This document shows, piece after piece, positions 36,104 to 48,163 of a stretch of 64,000 bases of DNA. A program made the position numbers and the translations under genes. Below the pieces are notes generated by a model. It made no database searches. It was not told the DNA's origin and saw nothing but the letters and a program-made list of their open reading frames with translations. The DNA is from Gammaproteobacteria bacterium (GTDB taxonomy: Bacteria; Pseudomonadota; Gammaproteobacteria; PIWD01). Location: NCBI GenBank assembly GCA_003354005.1, contig PIWD01000001.1, positions 19,489 through 83,488 on the forward strand. Reading direction: 5' to 3'. Positions within the stretch are counted from its first letter, which is position 1. Each line of letters opens with the position of its first letter.

Positions 36104-36179
36104 GGGTGCTTAGCTCAGTTGGTAGAGCGTCGCCCTTACAAGGCGGATGTCGTGAGTTCGAGTCTCGCAGCACCCACCA
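36104..36179 (+). tRNA. tRNA-Val (anticodon TAC)
   Basis: Cloverleaf folded by hand: acceptor GGGTGCT/AGCACCC, D-arm GCTC..GAGC, anticodon loop CTTACAA, T-arm GTGAGTTCGAGTCTCGC, CCA end encoded. Confidence 0.85.
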
Positions 36180-36190
36180 AGTATGTAATA

Positions 36191-36267
36191 GGAGTGGTAG
36201 TTCAGCTGGTTAGAATGCCGGCCTGTCACGCCGGAGGTCGCGGGTTCGAGTCCCGTCCACTCCGCCA
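36191..36267 (+). tRNA. tRNA-Asp (anticodon GTC)
   Basis: Acceptor GGAGTGG/CCACTCC, anticodon loop CTGTCAC, T-arm GCGGGTTCGAGTCCCGT, near-identical to canonical gammaproteobacterial tRNA-Asp; CCA encoded. Confidence 0.9.
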
Positions 36268-40208: not shown

Positions 40209-42896
40209 TTATGCTAGCCCTTTTACGTTTACTGGCTCTATTCCGTTTCCAATGTTATTGTGCTGTATTTGTTGCATAGTGTCTTGACATAGTAGATTAC
40301 TAGCTGGCATGATTCCGTTTTGTGTGCCTTGTGCTTCTTTAGTTACTTCTTCAAAAATTTTCTGTATATTGTATCCCAATCTTCTGTTCAAAATAAATAT
40401 GTTAATGATTGTAAAAATAAGTATACCAATATTACAGCCTGCAACAAGTAGCGTTGGGGACATGCTTATACCCACTAAGATAAATATACCAGTAGAGCAT
40501 ATTAATTCAATGAGAAAGATAAGAAAAAGTAAATTCATAGTGATATTTTGAGTATTTCTAACACATTCTTCTGATCTGATAAGGGATAAGAGATCCTCTA
40601 ATCTTGGCAATTCAAACTCAGCACTACGCAATTTTGGGTTTCCGCCAATAGAGAAACCACATTCTGCCTCATGTATCATACTCTGGTCATTAGAACCATC
40701 ACCTACAGCCCAGACAGTGATAGCATCTTTTTTCAGATTCTTGACAAACTTTCCTTTCTCGGCAGGGGACTGTGAACATAAGGGACTTGGAAACCATAAT
40801 TTATGAAACTCACTAATATTACTATTTTTTTTAGCAGTACAGCTTTGAGGAAGTTTTTTGAAGACTGATCTAAAAAGTTTATTATATGGACTTTCTAGTG
40901 TAAGACTATCAGCACCACTTATTATCTGAACCTTTATGTTATTTTTTATACAATAAATAATGAGTTCTTCAGTAATAACTTTGGTATCTTCAGGGGTAAA
41001 GGAAAAGCTGGTATCTGCTAGTTGCTTAAAATTATCTTCACCTGTAATTTTTTTTGCGACATAGGATTGTTGTTTGTTGCTGTTTTTTGCGATGCAATCT
41101 ATACCATGGTTCCGCATATATTTTGAATTCCCAATAATTATCTCAGTGCCATCTTCGTACCTTCCGTGTACACCACTGCCATAACCTTCATTTTCTATTA
41201 TAGTTGCCTTTTGTTGCTTATACGTGAATTCCTTATCATTCATCTTCTTAAGTAACTCTTTGGAGATTGACATAGCATGTTGGCTTTCCTGTGTGCTTTC
41301 TAATGACAATATTTTTGACACGATGTCAGCATTTAATTTACTACCTATTTTAACATCCTCGGCATAAAGTGAGTTATTTTTTGCCAATGTGCCAGTCCAG
41401 TCAAAGCAGATAGTTTTTTTTCCAGTCCTATTTGTAATAGGAAGGTGTAAGGAATGTATCTCTCTAAACTTCAGGCCAAATTTTCGTAAGACGCTACTAG
41501 CATGGAAAATTGACGAATAAAAACCTACAAATATAGTTGTTGGACAGAAGGCATTAAGGCAAGTAATAATATGAACTAAGATAAAGAACGGCAAGTCTAG
41601 ACAAATACCAACTGTTACAACTATAGCTACCCCTATAAGCAAGGAAATACAAAAAAGATTTGGCCATATTTTTATCAATCCAGACCTTTTATCCTCAGTC
41701 TCAGCAAGTGATCTGTTTTGCTCATCTTTTTTGTTTTTTATGAGCTTATACCCGTTCTTCAATGCCTTGACTGTTATTGTGAAATTTGAGCAATTTTTAG
41801 CACCAAAATATAGTTCTCTACCCAATTGGCAAGCAAACTCCCCAGTTATCCCTGTAACATCTTTATTGTCAATATTACAGCTTATTGTTTCTTTTTCTTC
41901 AAACCTAATTATAGTGGATCTGATGGGAACTTTCTCACCAGGAGAAATATGAAGAATATCATCTTCCTTAATTTTTTTTACAGGTTTCCACATTACTGTT
42001 TTTTGCGAATTTTCTTTACATTCTACTTTTACAAACCGATTGTAATTGGTATATTCCATGTTAAATTTTTCTACTTTCTCTTTTGTACCTGGGTTACTAA
42101 GTGCTGCATCGATGACGAATCCAGCAAGTAGAGCAAAAAGACTGATAAGGGAAGGAATAAAGAAGGGAGTGGTAATGCCAGCTAATAAAAACGGAGTAGG
42201 ATATATGACTACAAAAATTGATACTATAAAAGGTATGAAGACTGTAAGTGCGCCAATGCAGTGAATGCCAGGAGGCTGGATGCCATTTTTTTTTCCTTGG
42301 AATATATTGAGTTCATTGCAAGCCTTTTTAAGGATTGGTAGAGATGTATAGAGGATGATAAGGCTCAAAGGTATCATGATCACAAAATAGCCTGGCATAC
42401 AAAAGAAGCTTGTTAGTAGGGACACCCAATTTAAAGATTCAGCTACTTTTAATAAGGCAATAGATGCGCCTACAAGAAAAGTACTTGTAAGGCTTGATTG
42501 TACTTTCCAATCCTCATAACAATGCAATGCTTCCGAAATTTCAATTTTGGCTTGATAATTATCAGTAGTAAGCAAGTGACCTCCCTTGAACTCAGGAATC
42601 TCACTCTCAGAGTCGATGCGGTAAACTTCTGGAAAGGGAAGCTTTTTTGAATAAGATGGCTTCTGATGTTCTCCAGTGAAATACTCTTTTATCCTGTTAA
42701 AAAAGCTTTTCTCTTCTTCCAATAAGCCGAGTCGTTGTATTTTGTAGTGGTAGCCATTGCCTAGAAAAGTATCTAGCTGAGTACTTACCTTTTTCTCCCC
42801 TATCTCCTTATATTCATACTTTTCATCCGTGGACATGCCACCTGCACCAGATTGGTGTTGAATACAAGAATAATAACTAAAGGTTTTTTGTGTCAT
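40209..42896 (-). CDS. Divergent P-type-ATPase-like membrane protein (TGE, D-W-TGTL, GDGSND motifs) with about 140-aa N-terminal extension
   Basis: 895 aa; TM pairs flanking actuator (ITGEF) and P-domain (CFDWTGTLA ... WAVGDGSNDQSM); CPT in a TM helix; lysine of DKTGT replaced by Trp. Confidence 0.6.
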   Translation of the reverse strand: MTQKTFSYYSCIQHQSGAGGMSTDEKYEYKEIGEKKVSTQLDTFLGNGYHYKIQRLGLLEEEKSFFNRIKEYFTGEHQKPSYSKKLPFPEVYRIDSESEIPEFKGGHLLTTDNYQAKIEISEALHCYEDWKVQSSLTSTFLVGASIALLKVAESLNWVSLLTSFFCMPGYFVIMIPLSLIILYTSLPILKKACNELNIFQGKKNGIQPPGIHCIGALTVFIPFIVSIFVVIYPTPFLLAGITTPFFIPSLISLFALLAGFVIDAALSNPGTKEKVEKFNMEYTNYNRFVKVECKENSQKTVMWKPVKKIKEDDILHISPGEKVPIRSTIIRFEEKETISCNIDNKDVTGITGEFACQLGRELYFGAKNCSNFTITVKALKNGYKLIKNKKDEQNRSLAETEDKRSGLIKIWPNLFCISLLIGVAIVVTVGICLDLPFFILVHIITCLNAFCPTTIFVGFYSSIFHASSVLRKFGLKFREIHSLHLPITNRTGKKTICFDWTGTLAKNNSLYAEDVKIGSKLNADIVSKILSLESTQESQHAMSISKELLKKMNDKEFTYKQQKATIIENEGYGSGVHGRYEDGTEIIIGNSKYMRNHGIDCIAKNSNKQQSYVAKKITGEDNFKQLADTSFSFTPEDTKVITEELIIYCIKNNIKVQIISGADSLTLESPYNKLFRSVFKKLPQSCTAKKNSNISEFHKLWFPSPLCSQSPAEKGKFVKNLKKDAITVWAVGDGSNDQSMIHEAECGFSIGGNPKLRSAEFELPRLEDLLSLIRSEECVRNTQNITMNLLFLIFLIELICSTGIFILVGISMSPTLLVAGCNIGILIFTIINIFILNRRLGYNIQKIFEEVTKEAQGTQNGIMPASNLLCQDTMQQIQHNNIGNGIEPVNVKGLA

Positions 42897-43187: not shown

Positions 43188-44213
43188 TTAAGCCTGTGTT
43201 GTGAAGTGTAGCATTCGCTCAATCGGTTTACGTGCTTTTTGGATAATGCCACCATCCAGTATAATTTCTCCCCATTCATTCTGCAAAGCATCATATAAAT
43301 TTTGTAAGTGGTTCATCGCCATCCATGGGCAGTGTCCGCAGCTCTTGCAGGTGGCACCATGTCCACTTGTGGGTGCCTCTAGCAGCAATTTATGTGGTGC
43401 AGCCTGCTGCATTTTGTAGAAAATACCACGATCTGTTGCGACGATAAAGGTTGTATGCGGTAGCTCGAAGGTTGCTTTAATCAATCGACTGGTTGAACCC
43501 ACCACATCTGCTAATGCAATAACTGCTTTAGGAGCCTCTGGATGCACCAATAGTCCTGCTTCTGGGTACTGCTGCTGAAGTTTCTGTATGCCATTGGCCT
43601 TAAATTCTTCATGTACCACACATGCACCACCCCACACAACCATATCAGCACCTGTTTGATTCTGAATGTAATGACCTAAATGACGATCAGGAGCCCAAAT
43701 TAGTTTCTCTCCATGTCGTGTTAAATGATCAACCACATCGCATGCAATGCTAGAGGTAACAACCCAATCAGCCCGTGCTTTAACGGCAGCGGCTGTATTG
43801 GCGTATACCACAACCGTACGTTCTGGGTGCTGGTCACAAAATGCTGAAAATTCTTTGATGGGGCATCCTAAATCAAGAGAACAAGTTGCGTCTAAGCTTG
43901 GCATTAGCACTTTTTTGTGGGGACTTAAAATTTTAGCTGTCTCACCCATAAAGCGTACACCAACAACAACCAATATATCTGCAGGATGCTGATGACCGAA
44001 TCGCGCCATTTCTAGTGAATCCGAAACAATACCGCCAGTTTCCTCAGTTAATGCTTGTAAAATAGGATCAGTATAATAATGTGTAATTAATACAGCATTT
44101 TTTTCACGCAGCATGACGTGGATACGCTGTATCAAATCAGATTGTTGTATCTCAGTTAGCTCTGGAACAAGCGTGGTGTCTGGCATTTCAAAGGTTGCAG
44201 ATGGTCTAAACAT
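43188..44213 (-). CDS. nadA: Quinolinate synthase NadA
   Basis: 341 aa; conserved Cys ligands (CxxC..., C..C.HC) and NadA triple-repeat fold pattern. Confidence 0.8.
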
Positions 44214-44437
44214 AAAAATATCTGTTATAAAAATATTCCATTAATTGTGATTTAAGGAACGACTGCACTTCCCGTGCCACGTATCTTTATCTTAGCACAT
44301 CTCTAAATATGTACAACTCCAAGTTTATCGAGCAGATCTATGAGATTATCCTATAATAGAAGGTATAGAAGCTATACAAGAGACTGAAGACATCAAAAAT
44401 TTCCTAGAATACAGCAGAAATAAAGGAATAGGTAAAT

Positions 44438-45376
44438 ATGAAAGGATGGATTTTATACCATAAACAGCAAGATGAACTCAGTCAAGAAGACTACGATATT
44501 CATCGATTACTAGAGGCGGCCAAGGCAAAGCATATACCCTTAAAGATTTATTCACCAAAAGAATTCGAGTTAATCGTTAGCCGTGATGATCAAAAAAGTG
44601 TCTTATTGAATGGTAAGATGATTGCATTACCTGATTTCTTAATACCGAGGATTGGTGCGAAAACGACTTATTTTGGATTGGCTGTAATTCGACAGTTAGA
44701 GCGATTAAATATTTATGTGTGCAATATGTCTTCAACTGTTGAGATCGTTAAAGATAAATTACGTATTCATCAAATCTTGGCAGAAAGTAATCTACCAACC
44801 CCCAAAACTATGTTACTGAAGTTCCCAGTTAATATTGAATTAGTTGAGGAAGAAATTAACTTTCCACTTATCATAAAAGATATTAACGGTACCGAGGGTC
44901 AAGGTATTTATCTGTGTGAGTCTTCCCTTAAATTTAAAGAATTAATGGAATTGCTAGATAGCTATAAAGAAAACATCCATATGATTATCCAAGAATTTAT
45001 ATCAGGGAGCAAAGGAACAGACCTACGAGTTATTGTGATAGGTGGTAAGGTTATTGGTTGTATTAAGCGTACAGCAACTGATGGCAGTTTTAAGGCAAAT
45101 TATTCCTTAGGTGCTAAAATTGAGCCTTTCCAACTAAACCCAGAAATTGAATCGCTAGCATTAGAAACAGCAAAATTGCTGAATTTAGAAACAGCAGGGA
45201 TTGACCTTTTATTTAATGAGGAGGGCTATAAGGTATTAGAGGCGAATTCATCTCCAGGATTTGAGGGTTTTGAAAAAGTGAATGGTAAATATGTTGCTGA
45301 GGAAATTCTATCGCATGTCTTGTTACAAACGTCTGAGTGTATAAAAAAAAGGGGGAATCAATGTGTCGATTTATAA
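44438..45376 (+). CDS. RimK-like ATP-grasp ligase
   Basis: 312 aa; ATP-grasp pattern (PLIIKDINGTEGQGIYL, DLRVIVIGGKVIG, AGIDLLF), pre-ATP-grasp N-domain. Confidence 0.65.
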   Translation: MKGWILYHKQQDELSQEDYDIHRLLEAAKAKHIPLKIYSPKEFELIVSRDDQKSVLLNGKMIALPDFLIPRIGAKTTYFGLAVIRQLERLNIYVCNMSSTVEIVKDKLRIHQILAESNLPTPKTMLLKFPVNIELVEEEINFPLIIKDINGTEGQGIYLCESSLKFKELMELLDSYKENIHMIIQEFISGSKGTDLRVIVIGGKVIGCIKRTATDGSFKANYSLGAKIEPFQLNPEIESLALETAKLLNLETAGIDLLFNEEGYKVLEANSSPGFEGFEKVNGKYVAEEILSHVLLQTSECIKKRGNQCVDL

Positions 45377-46218
45377 CTTATCTAGGTAAGAAACCAGTTT
45401 TAATCGGCGAAATTTTAGATAAGCCATCTAATTCACTCATCAATCAAAGCAGAAGGGCAAAAGAAAGTGCAACAGACTTAAATGCGGATGGTTTTGGTAT
45501 TGGGTGGTATAATTTTTCCATTGATGATAACCCTGGTATCTTTAAATCGATACAACCAGCTTGGAACAACAACAATCTGCAAAATTTGGCTGAAAAGATA
45601 CAATCTACTTGTTTTGTAGGACATGTTCGTGCATGTACCGTAGGGGATATCACCACCTTAAACTGTCACCCTTTTTTTTATAAGAATTATTTATTTGTGC
45701 ATAATGGTACAATCGATAACTTTTCTCGATTTAAACGGCCTATTTTGAATGAGCTTTCTGACACTTATTTTGATATAATCAAGGGGCAGAGTGACTCGGA
45801 ACATTTTTTTGCATTACTCATGGACTGTTTTTATAAAATAAAAGGTGATCACTTTTTAAATGATATGACACTCGCTTTTAAAGTAGCAATCCAAAAACTT
45901 CAAACCATACGAGATGCGATTGGCACTCACTCTTGCATAAAGTTAAACACTATGATCACAAATGGGCAAGAGCTACTTGCTTTGCGCTACACATACCCTT
46001 TAGAAAAAAAACATTTATCACTGTACTATGCATCAGCAGCTTACGTGAAGTATGATGGAAAGGTTCTTATGCAACGTATAAGAGATCAGGCAGCAACGGC
46101 CGTTGTAATTGCCTCAGAACCACTTACAGAGATATCAGAAACTTGGAAAAAAATTCCAGAAAACCATATCCTGAAAGTGGATAGGGGTTTTAACCTCAAT
46201 TTCGAGAAAAGCAACTAA
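45361..46218 (+). CDS. Class-II (Ntn) glutamine amidotransferase-like protein, YafJ/EgtC-type, Cys2 nucleophile
   Basis: Starts MCRF(I/L)(T/A)YLG as EgtC/YafJ; ATG at 45361 overlaps rimK-like stop by 16 nt; 285 aa. Confidence 0.6.
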   Translation: MCRFITYLGKKPVLIGEILDKPSNSLINQSRRAKESATDLNADGFGIGWYNFSIDDNPGIFKSIQPAWNNNNLQNLAEKIQSTCFVGHVRACTVGDITTLNCHPFFYKNYLFVHNGTIDNFSRFKRPILNELSDTYFDIIKGQSDSEHFFALLMDCFYKIKGDHFLNDMTLAFKVAIQKLQTIRDAIGTHSCIKLNTMITNGQELLALRYTYPLEKKHLSLYYASAAYVKYDGKVLMQRIRDQAATAVVIASEPLTEISETWKKIPENHILKVDRGFNLNFEKSN

Positions 46219-46410
46219 TAACATCGCGATTTCAAAGTAATTTCAAAAAAACATTGTTAAAAATAAAGAGCTTAAGAGCTACAAACTCCCTTACTTAACA
46301 AGAATAAATTTATTTACTTGGAACAGCTGGAATTTGGTTGACAGTCCCAGAATCGTTTGCCACACTGTTTAGCTGTTCTGCTCCTCTAAAAAGAGGACAG
46401 AGGGATTCTT

Positions 46411-47910
46411 GTGGTAAGACAAGAGGCTTTTTATTTCAGTTGTGGTAGTTGGGATGGTGTAATGGATATTAGTTATTTCTTTAGTAGGGTGTTTCTTGTA
46501 CTGAGGTCTGTAAGTGATGCGCTTGCTACTTTAGTTCGCATGATCATTTTTGCACTTCTTACTCTTGCGATTCCAGTAGGTTTTGGAGTCGTTCTTGGGT
46601 TGACAGTAGGGCTTGGCTTTAGTATGTTATTTTATGTGTTTGATGTGCTATTTATCTGGAAGCTATATAGAGTCAATAGACTCTTTCCTATTGTTCTTGG
46701 TTATCCTAGAGCCCTCTCTCTTATCTCTTTAGTGTTTTTACATTTTGCTAGAGCATTGGGGTTCTGCTCAGAAATAGCATTTGTTTTTGCCCTTCTATAT
46801 ACCTCCAAGCTAATCATTTTCTATCTACTATGCCTAGCCGTATCGGCATGTGTTGGTTTGTTTGTGGGCACATTTTTAGGTATAGTTGTTTTTGCTTGTA
46901 TTTATAGAGAATATAGTGCATTAACTTTGGTCATTCCTCTTGTCTTATTCGCAGTTTTCATTTTTTTAATTTTCTTGTCACTATACTTTTCCTTTACTGG
47001 TTCAATTTTTGCTGTGAAATTGTGTGTGGGTTTCTGCTTTATTGTGTTTATCATTGAATGTAAGAAGTGTAAAATGTATTTACGGCATGCGTTATCTCTT
47101 GATTTTTGGTATGTAATACGTGAAATTCTACTTGGTGCCAGGGCTATTGAGTTATGGGCCGAGTTCTTGGGTTCAGGTCTTGTAGTTAGTAATATAGGCA
47201 GTAATAATAACGTGTTGAAAAATCTGTTGCTGGTAATGGATTCAGATGAAGATTTACAGTCTCTTCAATTAGTTACTTCAGATCAATTAGAGCAATTAGA
47301 TCAATTAGATCGATTAGAGCAATTAGAGCAATTAGAGAAGGAAATTCGATGTGGAATTTTACATGAGTTGCCAGATGCTCCTGTTAGAACAGGAGCTATG
47401 GTAGCTGTGTGTGGTTTAGAGTCTCTTATTAGGTGGTGTAGAGAGAAGGTTGACAGTGATGCTGCCATTAATGCTCCCATTATGGGAGCTTCTTTAGCAC
47501 TGCAAAAAATATACGTAGGCTACGGAATGGAAACTGTCAACTCTTTTTTTGATATTATTGAGAGTGATCAGGAGATACGTGGTATTTTAGGCATTGGAGA
47601 AGGAGTGAATAAAAATACATTCTGTAATAACTACATTAAAAAACGAAATGCTGTACAAAGAAAGATTAATGCTATACAAGGGGAGTTAATGGATGATGAA
47701 CAGATTGAAGAGCAAGAGCAAGGAGTAATAGTTGAGATAGAAAGTGAATACTGCCTTAATTTTCTTCAACAACAGGATCTCGCCCAGGAGGGATTTCAGC
47801 CCATTGCTGTACGCCCCCAGCCAGACATTGTACAGCAGTTCATTGATGTGGAAGTGCCTGCTGGGGGGCTTCCTAGTTTGCATTTAGGTGCTAGCTCTTA
47901 TTGGAGCTAA
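46411..47910 (+). CDS. Hypothetical polytopic membrane protein with C-terminal coiled-coil/acidic soluble domain; contains in-frame 9-bp tandem repeat
   Basis: About 230 aa of TM helices, then LEQLDQLDRLEQLEQLEKE encoded by (CAATTAGAG/T)n at about 47285-47340; start codon uncertain. Confidence 0.5.
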   Translation: MVRQEAFYFSCGSWDGVMDISYFFSRVFLVLRSVSDALATLVRMIIFALLTLAIPVGFGVVLGLTVGLGFSMLFYVFDVLFIWKLYRVNRLFPIVLGYPRALSLISLVFLHFARALGFCSEIAFVFALLYTSKLIIFYLLCLAVSACVGLFVGTFLGIVVFACIYREYSALTLVIPLVLFAVFIFLIFLSLYFSFTGSIFAVKLCVGFCFIVFIIECKKCKMYLRHALSLDFWYVIREILLGARAIELWAEFLGSGLVVSNIGSNNNVLKNLLLVMDSDEDLQSLQLVTSDQLEQLDQLDRLEQLEQLEKEIRCGILHELPDAPVRTGAMVAVCGLESLIRWCREKVDSDAAINAPIMGASLALQKIYVGYGMETVNSFFDIIESDQEIRGILGIGEGVNKNTFCNNYIKKRNAVQRKINAIQGELMDDEQIEEQEQGVIVEIESEYCLNFLQQQDLAQEGFQPIAVRPQPDIVQQFIDVEVPAGGLPSLHLGASSYWS

Positions 47911-47941
47911 ACTAATTAAGCCAGCAGGTGAAGTACAGCGT

Positions 47942-48163
47942 ATGTCCCAGGTGTTGTCCATTATTGTAAATAAGCAGACCATAAATCTGTCATTGCCAAC
48001 TGGCAGCTTGTTGGTCGATGTTGTGGGAGCGTTAAAGATCTGCCAGGGGCAGCCCTTTGCTGTGCAAGTGAATCAGCACTTTGTACCACGTAGTGCCTAT
48101 ATTAAAACGCGTATTTATTCAAAGGATTGCTTAGATATTTTATTAGCAGCTCCAGGAGGGTAG
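47942..48163 (+). CDS. thiS: Sulfur carrier protein ThiS
   Basis: Small protein ending in Gly-Gly immediately upstream of thiG. Confidence 0.7.
   Translation: MSQVLSIIVNKQTINLSLPTGSLLVDVVGALKICQGQPFAVQVNQHFVPRSAYIKTRIYSKDCLDILLAAPGG

What the first reader, a model, noticed from the sequence alone, without database searches (positions are those of the whole stretch)
44438..46218. Translationally coupled RimK-like ATP-grasp ligase + Cys2 Ntn amidotransferase (YafJ/EgtC-like) gene pair
The amidotransferase must start at ATG 45361, so that Cys is residue 2 (MCRFITYLG), the obligatory N-terminal nucleophile. That start lies 16 nt inside the ligase's 3' end, giving a tight two-gene operon. An ATP-dependent carboxylate-amine ligase paired with a glutamine amidohydrolase is the logic of small-peptide or amino-acid-derivative biosynthesis. 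Examples are ergothioneine EgtC, glutathione-like compounds and ribosomal-protein or peptide tail modification by RimK. No third gene that would define the pathway is adjacent.
Basis: partly seen in the sequence, partly recalled or inferred. Interest (0 to 1): 0.5.

Follow-up and report, generated by a model that had tools for sequence, protein, structure and literature searches.

The report
Glutamate ligase plus glutamine-type amidohydrolase pair
Two overlapping genes, one for an ATP-driven glutamate-adding enzyme and one for a cysteine-nucleophile enzyme that cuts glutamine-type amide bonds, form a real pair that recurs in many mostly host-associated bacteria, but its product is unknown and each gene also occurs alone elsewhere.

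Summary
A 312-aa RimK-family ATP-grasp ligase (44438-45376) overlaps by 16 nt a 285-aa class-II (Ntn) amidohydrolase that starts at ATG 45361 (MCRF...), behind an AGGGGG ribosome-binding site.

Both proteins look catalytically intact and give confident models (pLDDT about 91). The pair recurs in at least 24 other sequence clusters and at least 6 different genomic contexts. In a Bacteroidales genome it occurs in the reverse gene order, with a GATase from a different clade. No third gene is conserved.

The labels need correction:
- The hydrolase is a sister of EgtC, not EgtC. It scores below the curated cut-off, and there is no egtB or egtD in the window.
- The ligase is not canonical RimK. It belongs to a separate sub-clade that also holds the "phage RimK" of marine cyanophages.
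- Either gene often occurs alone: the ligase in Legionella hackeliae, a Chlamydiales MAG, Pseudoalteromonas and 80 of 80 viral loci; the hydrolase on Legionella plasmids.

My best model is inference, not demonstration. An autonomous glutamate ligase acting on a universal acceptor has recruited a glutaminase or gamma-glutamyl hydrolase that supplies or recycles its glutamate. The rivals are an ammonia-donor subunit, a tail-trimming "eraser", and a gamma-glutamyl handle pathway. This is an uncharacterised variant of the known pattern of a RimK ligase with a hydrolase partner, of moderate interest.

The parts
44214..44437 (+). Intergenic region between divergent nadA and the ligase; presumed promoter and 5' UTR of the pair
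   Evidence: nadA (PF02445, 2.4e-99) ends at 44213 on the minus strand. There is no plus-strand ORF of 20 aa or more lying inside it (one 43-aa ORF, 44113..44244, overlaps its 5' end), no Rfam match, and no consensus promoter was called on the plus strand here. The promoter is inferred, not shown.
44438..45376 (+). RimK-family ATP-grasp alpha-L-glutamate ligase (312 aa), a member of the 'phage-type RimK' sub-clade
   Evidence: PF08443 2.8e-46, PF18030 3.6e-16, TIGR00768 216.5 bits against a 143.4 cut-off. AF2 pLDDT 90.7, with TM 0.82-0.93 to RimK structures 5zct, 7qys and 5zk6. ATP/Mg motifs are conserved: K107, G151/G154/G156, D256, E268, N270. Nearest relatives are 55-62% identical.
45350..45355 (+). 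Shine-Dalgarno-like AGGGGG for the second gene, lying inside the ligase coding sequence
   Evidence: Read directly from the sequence; 5 nt upstream of ATG 45361.
45361..45376 (+). 16-nt overlap between the ligase 3' end and the hydrolase 5' end (possible translational coupling)
   Evidence: Homologous pairs have gaps of +6 to +21 nt, and the reversed Bacteroidales pair overlaps by 23 nt.
45361..46218 (+). Stand-alone class-II (Ntn, Cys2) glutamine-type amidohydrolase (285 aa), sister to EgtC
   Evidence: PF13230 1.2e-24. TIGR03442 (EgtC) scores 186.9, below the 218.65 cut-off. C2, R3, R90, N101, H103, N115, G116, D145 and E147 are invariant. AF2 pLDDT 90.9, with best folds 3mdn, EgtC (4zfk/4zfj/4zfl) and the GlmS glutaminase domain. 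The GlmS alignment places R90, N115-G116 and D145 on R73, N98-G99 and D123.

Best explanation
This is a co-transcribed, self-contained two-gene module.

Gene 1 is an intact RimK-family ATP-grasp enzyme. Like all characterised members of that family, it should activate a carboxylate as an acyl phosphate and join it to the amino group of L-glutamate. The same ligase sub-clade works alone in cyanophages, Pseudoalteromonas, Legionella hackeliae and a Chlamydiales MAG. Its acceptor must therefore be something universal: free glutamate (giving poly-alpha-glutamate) or the acidic C-terminus of a conserved protein such as ribosomal protein S6.

Gene 2 is a stand-alone Cys-Ntn amidohydrolase. After removal of Met1, Cys2 attacks the gamma-amide of a substrate that carries a free L-glutamyl head group, either glutamine or a gamma-glutamyl-X compound, and releases glutamate.

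My working model is that one clade of mostly host-associated bacteria recruited the hydrolase as an accessory. It makes or recycles the glutamate used by the ligase, from glutamine or gamma-glutamyl compounds.

Shown: the gene structure, intact catalytic residues, the folds, recurrent pairing, and the autonomy of each gene. Inferred: the substrates, the direction of flow, and any physical complex.
For: Anatomy and start codon.

Families and folds.

The glutamine-binding and oxyanion residues are invariant and align with GlmS.

The pair is conserved:
- 24 of the other 119 top GATase hits share an exact contig length with a top ligase hit, as do 15 of the top 40 ligases.
- Loci with DNA in hand: L081, L091, L094, L095, L096, L002 and L029.
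- There are at least 6 unrelated flanking contexts and no constant third gene.
- Spacing is always tight, from -23 to +21 nt.
- The Bacteroidales pair has the reverse order, and its GATase lies outside the main paired clade, so the pairing probably arose twice.
- Distances in the two proteins are weakly but significantly correlated (r = 0.36; Mantel test, 4 of 2000 permutations).

The ligase is autonomous. It stands alone in L. hackeliae, a Chlamydiales MAG and Pseudoalteromonas, and in 80 of 80 viral loci and the cyanophages.

The hydrolase is autonomous. It is alone in 78 of 80 genome loci and on Legionella plasmids flanked by IS elements or a group II intron.

Precedent: canonical rimK operons also carry hydrolases (PMC11957791).
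Against: No substrate or product has been identified.

Glutamate is normally abundant in bacteria, so a dedicated supply enzyme is not obviously needed.

The chemistry of the two enzymes does not connect in an obvious way. RimK products are N-acyl (alpha-linked) glutamates, whereas the Ntn pocket expects a free alpha-amino gamma-glutamyl group.

I could only examine loci, not whole genomes. The 'alone' cases may have the partner elsewhere in the genome.

The window ligase deviates from its own family consensus in the FKANYS[R]G[G] motif: it has L and A there. The meaning of this is unknown.

The co-location frequency is a lower bound, drawn from truncated hit lists.
Confidence: 0.4

Rival explanations
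1. Two-subunit glutamine-dependent amidoligase. The Ntn protein is a true amidotransferase subunit that hydrolyses glutamine and passes ammonia to the ATP-grasp partner. The partner then amidates an acyl-phosphate intermediate. Ligase-only organisms would use free ammonia, as happens with NH3-dependent versus glutamine-dependent forms of other synthetases.
For: - The glutamine-binding residues are fully conserved.
- Tight or overlapping gene spacing in every pair suggests stoichiometric co-production.
- No fusion was seen among the top hits: all are 236-311 aa or 298-345 aa long. For the usual ligase-then-GATase order, this fits the need for a free N-terminal Cys.
- Facultative pairing, enriched in intracellular lineages, resembles other switches between ammonia-dependent and glutamine-dependent enzymes.
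Against: - Every characterised RimK-family enzyme uses the amino group of an amino acid, usually glutamate, as the nucleophile, not ammonia (established knowledge).
- The nearest characterised relative, EgtC, is an autonomous hydrolase.
- The same GATase clade has members with no ligase within 2-6 kb (L004, L005, L011). Related GATases sit alone on Legionella plasmids.
- Separately encoded class-II glutaminase subunits are rare (recall).
Confidence: 0.17
2. Writer and eraser pair. The ligase adds glutamyl residues to a protein or peptide tail, or makes oligoglutamate. The Ntn hydrolase trims them. This would be analogous to RimK with the RimB protease.
For: - Canonical rimK is followed by an AstE/AspA-family hydrolase and a RimB-like gene in Vibrio.
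- RimB removes glutamates from polyglutamylated RpsF and stimulates RimK. Among the 37% of genomes that carry any rim gene, 44% have separate rimK and rimB (PMC11957791).
- That facultative pairing pattern matches what is seen here.
Against: - The Ntn pocket keeps the Arg and Asp that bind a free alpha-carboxylate and alpha-amino group. This fits gamma-glutamyl substrates, not alpha-linked polyglutamate.
- Hydrolase-only loci and plasmid copies would have no substrate unless a ligase is encoded elsewhere.
Confidence: 0.15
3. Two steps of a longer small-molecule pathway in which glutamate serves as a transient handle, as in ergothioneine (EgtA/EgtC) or butirosin. The other enzymes would be encoded elsewhere. 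This is closest to the first reader's idea.
For: - The hydrolase clade is sister to genuine EgtC genes, which sit next to EgtB and EgtD.
- Other relatives sit next to haem-oxygenase-like or TenA-like enzymes.
- Nearby genes in some pair loci: MscS (overlapping the GATase by 4 nt in L094 and 14 nt downstream in L096), glutaredoxin, and in L096 GNAT, MFS and a glutamate-type transporter further downstream.
Against: - No third gene is conserved across at least 6 contexts.
- The two MscS-linked loci represent one lineage: their MscS proteins are 78% identical.
- The window has no egtB, egtD or MscS.
- The pair is found in reduced-genome intracellular bacteria, and the ligase is carried by phages.
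Confidence: 0.18
4. Adjacency without functional coupling: two independent housekeeping enzymes that happen to be neighbours.
For: Each gene is often found alone.
Against: The pair recurs in at least 24 clusters, at least 6 contexts and two gene orders, with tight spacing and probably two independent origins.
Confidence: 0.08

Closest known systems
RimK (ribosomal protein S6--L-glutamate ligase / poly-alpha-glutamate synthetase) with its RimB or AstE-like hydrolase partners
   Same: The fold is the same (TM 0.82-0.93 to RimK chains of 5zct, 7qys, 7qyr, 5zk6 and 4iwx). The pre-ATP-grasp and ATP-grasp domains are the same, and the ATP/Mg residues are conserved. The operon logic of a ligase plus a facultative hydrolase partner also matches.
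   Different: Identity to canonical RimK is only about 32-35%. The protein scores below the RimK equivalog cut-off, 157 against 331. It has a different motif, FKANYSxG instead of FRSNLHRGG, and an N-terminal insertion. Its partner is a Cys-Ntn amidohydrolase, not a retropepsin-like or Zn hydrolase. S6 as substrate is untested.
'Phage RimK' of marine T4-like cyanophages (S-RIM8, S-RIM12, S-RIM32, S-CAM8; Monier et al. 2008, PMC2530865)
   Same: It belongs to the same RimK sub-clade: 43-49% identity over the full length, shared family-specific motifs, and one clade in the NJ tree.
   Different: The phage genes are always alone. None of 80 viral loci has the GATase, and the GATase is absent from the phage collections. 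Their function is also unknown.
EgtC (ergothioneine gamma-glutamyl amidohydrolase, PDB 4zfj/4zfk/4zfl)
   Same: It is a stand-alone Cys2 Ntn fold of the same Pfam family with no synthase domain. It is a sister clade and a top structural match.
   Different: It scores below the EgtC cut-off. Sequence similarity is largely confined to the N-terminal 120 residues. There is no EgtB or EgtD neighbour. It is closer to the uncharacterised 3mdn protein (2.1e-36 against 4.4e-13).
NAGGN osmolyte system (Ngg GNAT/ATP-grasp plus AsnO amidotransferase)
   Same: An ATP-grasp peptide ligase is paired with a class-II glutamine amidotransferase. An MscS channel lies next to the pair in one lineage.
   Different: The Ngg model scores 29 bits against a 569 cut-off. 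AsnO carries an asparagine-synthetase domain that is absent here. No GNAT is conserved with the pair.

Membership tests
RimK family alpha-L-glutamate ligases (TIGR00768 / PF08443) | Score above the curated cut-off; pre-ATP-grasp plus ATP-grasp domains | tested here: met
   216.5 bits against 143.4; PF18030 and PF08443.
RimK family alpha-L-glutamate ligases (TIGR00768 / PF08443) | Conserved ATP/Mg-binding residues and RimK-like fold | tested here: met
   K107, G151/G154/G156, D256, E268 and N270 are invariant. TM 0.82-0.93 to RimK chains in the PDB.
RimK proper (30S ribosomal protein S6--L-glutamate ligase, NF007764) | Equivalog score above the cut-off | tested here: not met
   157 bits against a 331 cut-off. 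A separate clade in the NJ tree.
RimK proper (30S ribosomal protein S6--L-glutamate ligase, NF007764) | [quoted passage not shown] | not testable with these tools
   rpsF is not in the window. Needs biochemistry or mass spectrometry.
Class-II (Ntn) glutamine amidotransferase / amidohydrolase domain | N-terminal nucleophile Cys directly after Met1 | tested here: met
   MCRF; C2 is invariant in 38 sequences.
Class-II (Ntn) glutamine amidotransferase / amidohydrolase domain | Asn-Gly oxyanion hole, and the Arg and Asp that bind the glutamine alpha-carboxylate and alpha-amino groups | tested here: met
   N115-G116, R90 and D145 are invariant and align with GlmS N98-G99, R73 and D123.
Class-II (Ntn) glutamine amidotransferase / amidohydrolase domain | Ntn hydrolase fold | tested here: met
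   pLDDT 90.9. Matches 3mdn, EgtC, GlmS and PurF glutaminase domains.
Amidotransferase in the strict sense (ammonia transfer to a synthase) | Fused or complexed synthase domain with an ammonia channel | not testable with these tools
   There is no fused domain (285 aa, one Pfam domain). A complex with the ligase could not be modelled.
EgtC (TIGR03442) | Equivalog score above the cut-off | tested here: not met
   186.9 against 218.65.
EgtC (TIGR03442) | Genomic association with egtB and egtD | tested here: not met
   No EgtB or EgtD homologue in the window. True EgtC-context genes form a separate clade.
Glutathione synthetase GshB; CofF; MptN; LysX; cyanophycin synthetase; Ngg | Equivalog score above the cut-off | tested here: not met
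   All are far below their cut-offs: 56.6/272, 107.8/300, 153.5/350, 131.8/275.6, 59.1/850 and 29.2/569.
Known anti-phage defence systems (PADLOC) | Match to any PADLOC model | tested here: not met
   No hits for either protein.

The most novel reading that the evidence does not exclude
The pair is a previously unrecognised glutamylation system of host-associated bacteria, built on the same ligase clade that marine cyanophages carry. One possibility is a glutamine-driven two-subunit ATP-grasp amidoligase. The other is a ribosome or proteome polyglutamylation switch whose eraser or feeder is a Cys-Ntn hydrolase in place of RimB. Either would give a function to 'phage RimK' and to a widespread EgtC-like protein clade.
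Probability: 0.2. Interest if true: 0.65.

Novelty: new variant of a known kind. Interest (0 to 1): 0.4.

Why it matters
Both families are well known, but this sub-clade of RimK-like ligases and this clade of EgtC-like hydrolases have no assigned function. The ligase clade is found in Legionellales, Francisellaceae, Chlamydiales, alphaproteobacterial MAGs, Pseudoalteromonas and hundreds of marine phage contigs.

The recurrent, probably twice-evolved pairing is the only functional clue available. It defines a small experiment with two proteins, using glutamine, glutamate and ATP. That experiment could reveal what phage and intracellular-bacterial RimK-like enzymes do.

If the pair only handles glutamate and glutamine, the finding is ordinary.

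Tried and rejected
1. Ergothioneine pathway: rejected. The score is below the cut-off, the window has no egtB or egtD, and the clade is separate.

2. Osmolyte (NAGGN-like) idea, prompted by MscS next to the pair in L094 and L096: downgraded. The two MscS proteins are 78% identical, so this is one lineage. MscS is absent from the window and from the other contexts.

3. Small acidic ORFs upstream of the ligase in L081 and L091 as a possible substrate peptide: not conserved. There is none in the window, L094, L095 or L096.

4. Glutaredoxin and SodB upstream (L002, L094): this is local synteny of one lineage.

5. Fusion proteins as Rosetta-stone evidence: none among the top 120 hits of either protein.

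6. Exact-sequence look-ups of the window proteins found no contig, and no accession was available. The organism is known only as a deep Legionellales-like lineage: its NuoG is at most about 52% identical to anything else, and about 48% to Legionella.

7. The metagenome scan with the single ligase gave only 3 loci.

8. Literature: no paper on this pair was found. Iyer et al. 2009 (PMC3268129), which may mention it, is not held.

9. Defence-system models: no hit.

10. Promoter and terminator scans were uninformative.
Full report
**1. What is in the sequence**

The plus strand carries an ORF from ATG 44438 to TAA 45374-45376 (312 aa). A second ORF has its mechanical start at GTG 45337. Within the second ORF, ATG 45361 gives MCRFITYLG. 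AGGGGG at 45350-45355 lies 5 nt upstream of that ATG. The two coding sequences overlap by 16 nt (45361-45376).

In an alignment of 38 homologues, 35 begin directly with MC and one with LC. Two carry predicted N-terminal extensions ahead of the same MCRF. Cys2 is invariant. The database copy of this protein is 285 aa. Methionine aminopeptidase removes Met before Cys (established knowledge), so a free N-terminal Cys is expected.

**2. What the two proteins are**

The ligase:
- It matches RimK (PF08443, 2.8e-46), the RimK pre-ATP-grasp domain, and TIGR00768 above its cut-off.
- It falls far below the equivalog cut-offs for RimK proper, MptN, LysX, CofF, GshB, cyanophycin synthetase and Ngg.
- Its AF2 model (pLDDT 90.7) superposes on RimK crystal structures with TM 0.82-0.93.
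- The ATP/Mg residues are invariant in the family.
- It differs from canonical RimK by a short N-terminal insertion and by FKANYSxG in place of FRSNLHRGG.

The second protein:
- It is a single-domain GATase_4 protein.
- It scores 186.9 on the EgtC model, below the 218.65 cut-off.
- By sequence, its best solved relative is the uncharacterised 3mdn (2.1e-36), ahead of EgtC (4.4e-13) and far ahead of the YafJ-like 1te5 (7.6e-4).
- The AF2 model (pLDDT 90.9) matches 3mdn, EgtC and the GlmS and PurF glutaminase domains.
- C2, R90, N115-G116 and D145 are invariant.
- The pocket for a free L-glutamyl head group and the oxyanion hole are therefore intact.

**3. Is the pair conserved?**

Yes, in a clade.
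- Among the top 120 hits of each protein, 24 GATase clusters besides the window's own share an exact longest-contig length with a ligase cluster. So do 15 of the top 40 ligases. This is a lower bound.
- DNA-level confirmation comes from L081-83, L091-93, L094, L095, L096, L002 and L029.
- The flanks differ widely:
  - nadA and thiS in the window.
  - An integrase and an MFS transporter.
  - Branched-chain amino-acid transporters.
  - sodB-grx on one side and an aminotransferase plus uvrB on the other.
  - mla, murA and zapE.
  - pheT and mgsA.
- Only the pair is constant.
- Spacing is always tight: -16, +14, +21, +11, +6 and +13 nt. The reversed Bacteroidales pair overlaps by 23 nt.
- Rough NJ trees place the paired GATases in one clade, sister to genuine EgtC genes. 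The Bacteroidales GATase lies outside that clade, so the association probably arose twice.
- Pairwise distances of the two proteins correlate weakly (r = 0.36; Mantel test, 4 of 2000 permutations).

**4. Each gene also lives alone**

The GATase family:
- 78 of 80 genome loci with a (more distant) GATase lack the ligase.
- In those loci the family sits next to EgtB and EgtD in cyanobacteria and other lineages. In Bacteroidota and Ignavibacteria it sits next to a TenA-like or haem-oxygenase-like gene. In the rest no partner recurs.
- Legionella anisa and L. adelaidensis plasmids carry it alone, flanked by IS elements or a group II intron. L. lytica also has a plasmid copy, whose context I did not examine.

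The ligase:
- At 51-57% identity it is alone in L. hackeliae, a Chlamydiales MAG and the Pseudoalteromonas megaplasmid.
- The same sub-clade is abundant in viral contigs. There are 248 stretches at 43-49% identity that share the family-specific motifs.
- It is present in the cyanophages S-RIM8, S-RIM12, S-RIM32 and S-CAM8.
- None of 80 viral loci carries the GATase, and the GATase is absent from the phage collections.
- Phage rimK was first noted by Monier et al. 2008 (PMC2530865).

The ligase therefore works on something universal and does not need the hydrolase.

**5. Mechanism**

Shown: two intact enzymes that are co-oriented, tightly spaced and recurrently linked.

Inferred:
- The ligase forms an acyl phosphate and adds L-glutamate, which is the chemistry of the RimK family.
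- The Ntn enzyme hydrolyses the gamma-amide of glutamine or a gamma-glutamyl compound, as EgtC and GlmS do.

I favour a model in which the hydrolase is an accessory that supplies or recycles glutamate for an autonomous ligase (confidence 0.4 including the general framing). It lets each enzyme do what its family does, and it tolerates either gene occurring alone.

The rivals are:
- A glutamine-dependent two-subunit amidoligase (0.17).
- A writer and eraser pair analogous to RimK and RimB (0.15). Canonical rimK operons do carry hydrolases. RimB trims polyglutamate tails (PMC11957791).
- Two steps of a longer gamma-glutamyl-handle pathway (0.18).
- Coincidental adjacency (0.08).

**6. Context**

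NuoG in the window is at most about 52% identical to any other database protein and about 48% identical to Legionella. The source is therefore a deep Legionellales-like lineage, on an NCBI contig of 92,499 bp. The pair has 35-36% GC, against about 44% for core genes. No rpsF, egtB, egtD, MscS, RimB-like or AstE-like gene lies in the window.

**7. Verdict**

It is an uncharacterised variant of the pattern of a RimK-type ligase with a hydrolase partner. No paper on it was found. Iyer et al. 2009 could not be read. Interest is moderate (0.4).

Noticed in passing
window 44438-45376; L102-L181; L182-L184: The window ligase belongs to the same RimK sub-clade as the 'phage RimK' of marine T4-like cyanophages. 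There are 248 IMG/VR stretches, plus S-RIM8, S-RIM12, S-RIM32 and S-CAM8, at 43-49% identity. The phage genes are always without the GATase, and their function is unknown.
   Followed up: partly
window 46411-47910 (+): A 499-aa ORF directly downstream of the pair has no Pfam match. It has a hydrophobic N-terminal half and an EQLDQLDRLEQLEQLE repeat. It is not conserved next to the pair elsewhere and could be a lineage-specific membrane or effector-like protein.
   Followed up: no
window 40209-42896 (-): An 895-aa low-GC (35%) ORF gives only marginal E1-E2 ATPase (25.4 bits, below the cut-off) and HAD hydrolase hits. It looks like a highly divergent P-type-ATPase-like protein.
   Followed up: no
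window 44001-48000: The pair and its neighbours have 35-38% GC, against about 44% for nadA, thiG, thiDE and nuoG. This may reflect horizontal acquisition or relaxed composition.
   Followed up: partly
L002 5074-5986: In a Francisellaceae MAG the ligase of the pair is split into two frames, from a frameshift or an assembly error. A paper lists the rimK-related gene FTT0178c as disrupted in Francisella tularensis type B strains (PMC2682660).
   Followed up: no
L094 6813-7688; L096 6843-8114: An MscS-family mechanosensitive channel gene follows the pair. In L094 it overlaps the GATase stop by 4 nt. In L096 it is followed by GNAT, MFS and SDF transporter genes. The two MscS proteins are 78% identical, so this is one lineage.
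   Followed up: partly
L098 6001-6864; L099 6001-6855: Legionella anisa and L. adelaidensis plasmids carry a lone copy of the related GATase, flanked by IS elements or a group II intron. This suggests the gene is mobile.
   Followed up: partly
L081 4896-5027; L091 5841-5975: Short, very acidic ORFs (43-44 aa, ending DDVFY and ENDF) lie just upstream of the ligase in two pair loci. They are not conserved in the window or in other pair loci.
   Followed up: partly
L087 6001-9060: In Legionella hackeliae the lone ligase sits next to efp and a radical-SAM (EpmB-like) gene. This is probably coincidental.
   Followed up: no
window 36104-36267: Adjacent tRNA-Val(TAC) and tRNA-Asp(GTC) genes. A nuo operon occupies roughly 11.7-28 kb. 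Both are ordinary.
   Followed up: no
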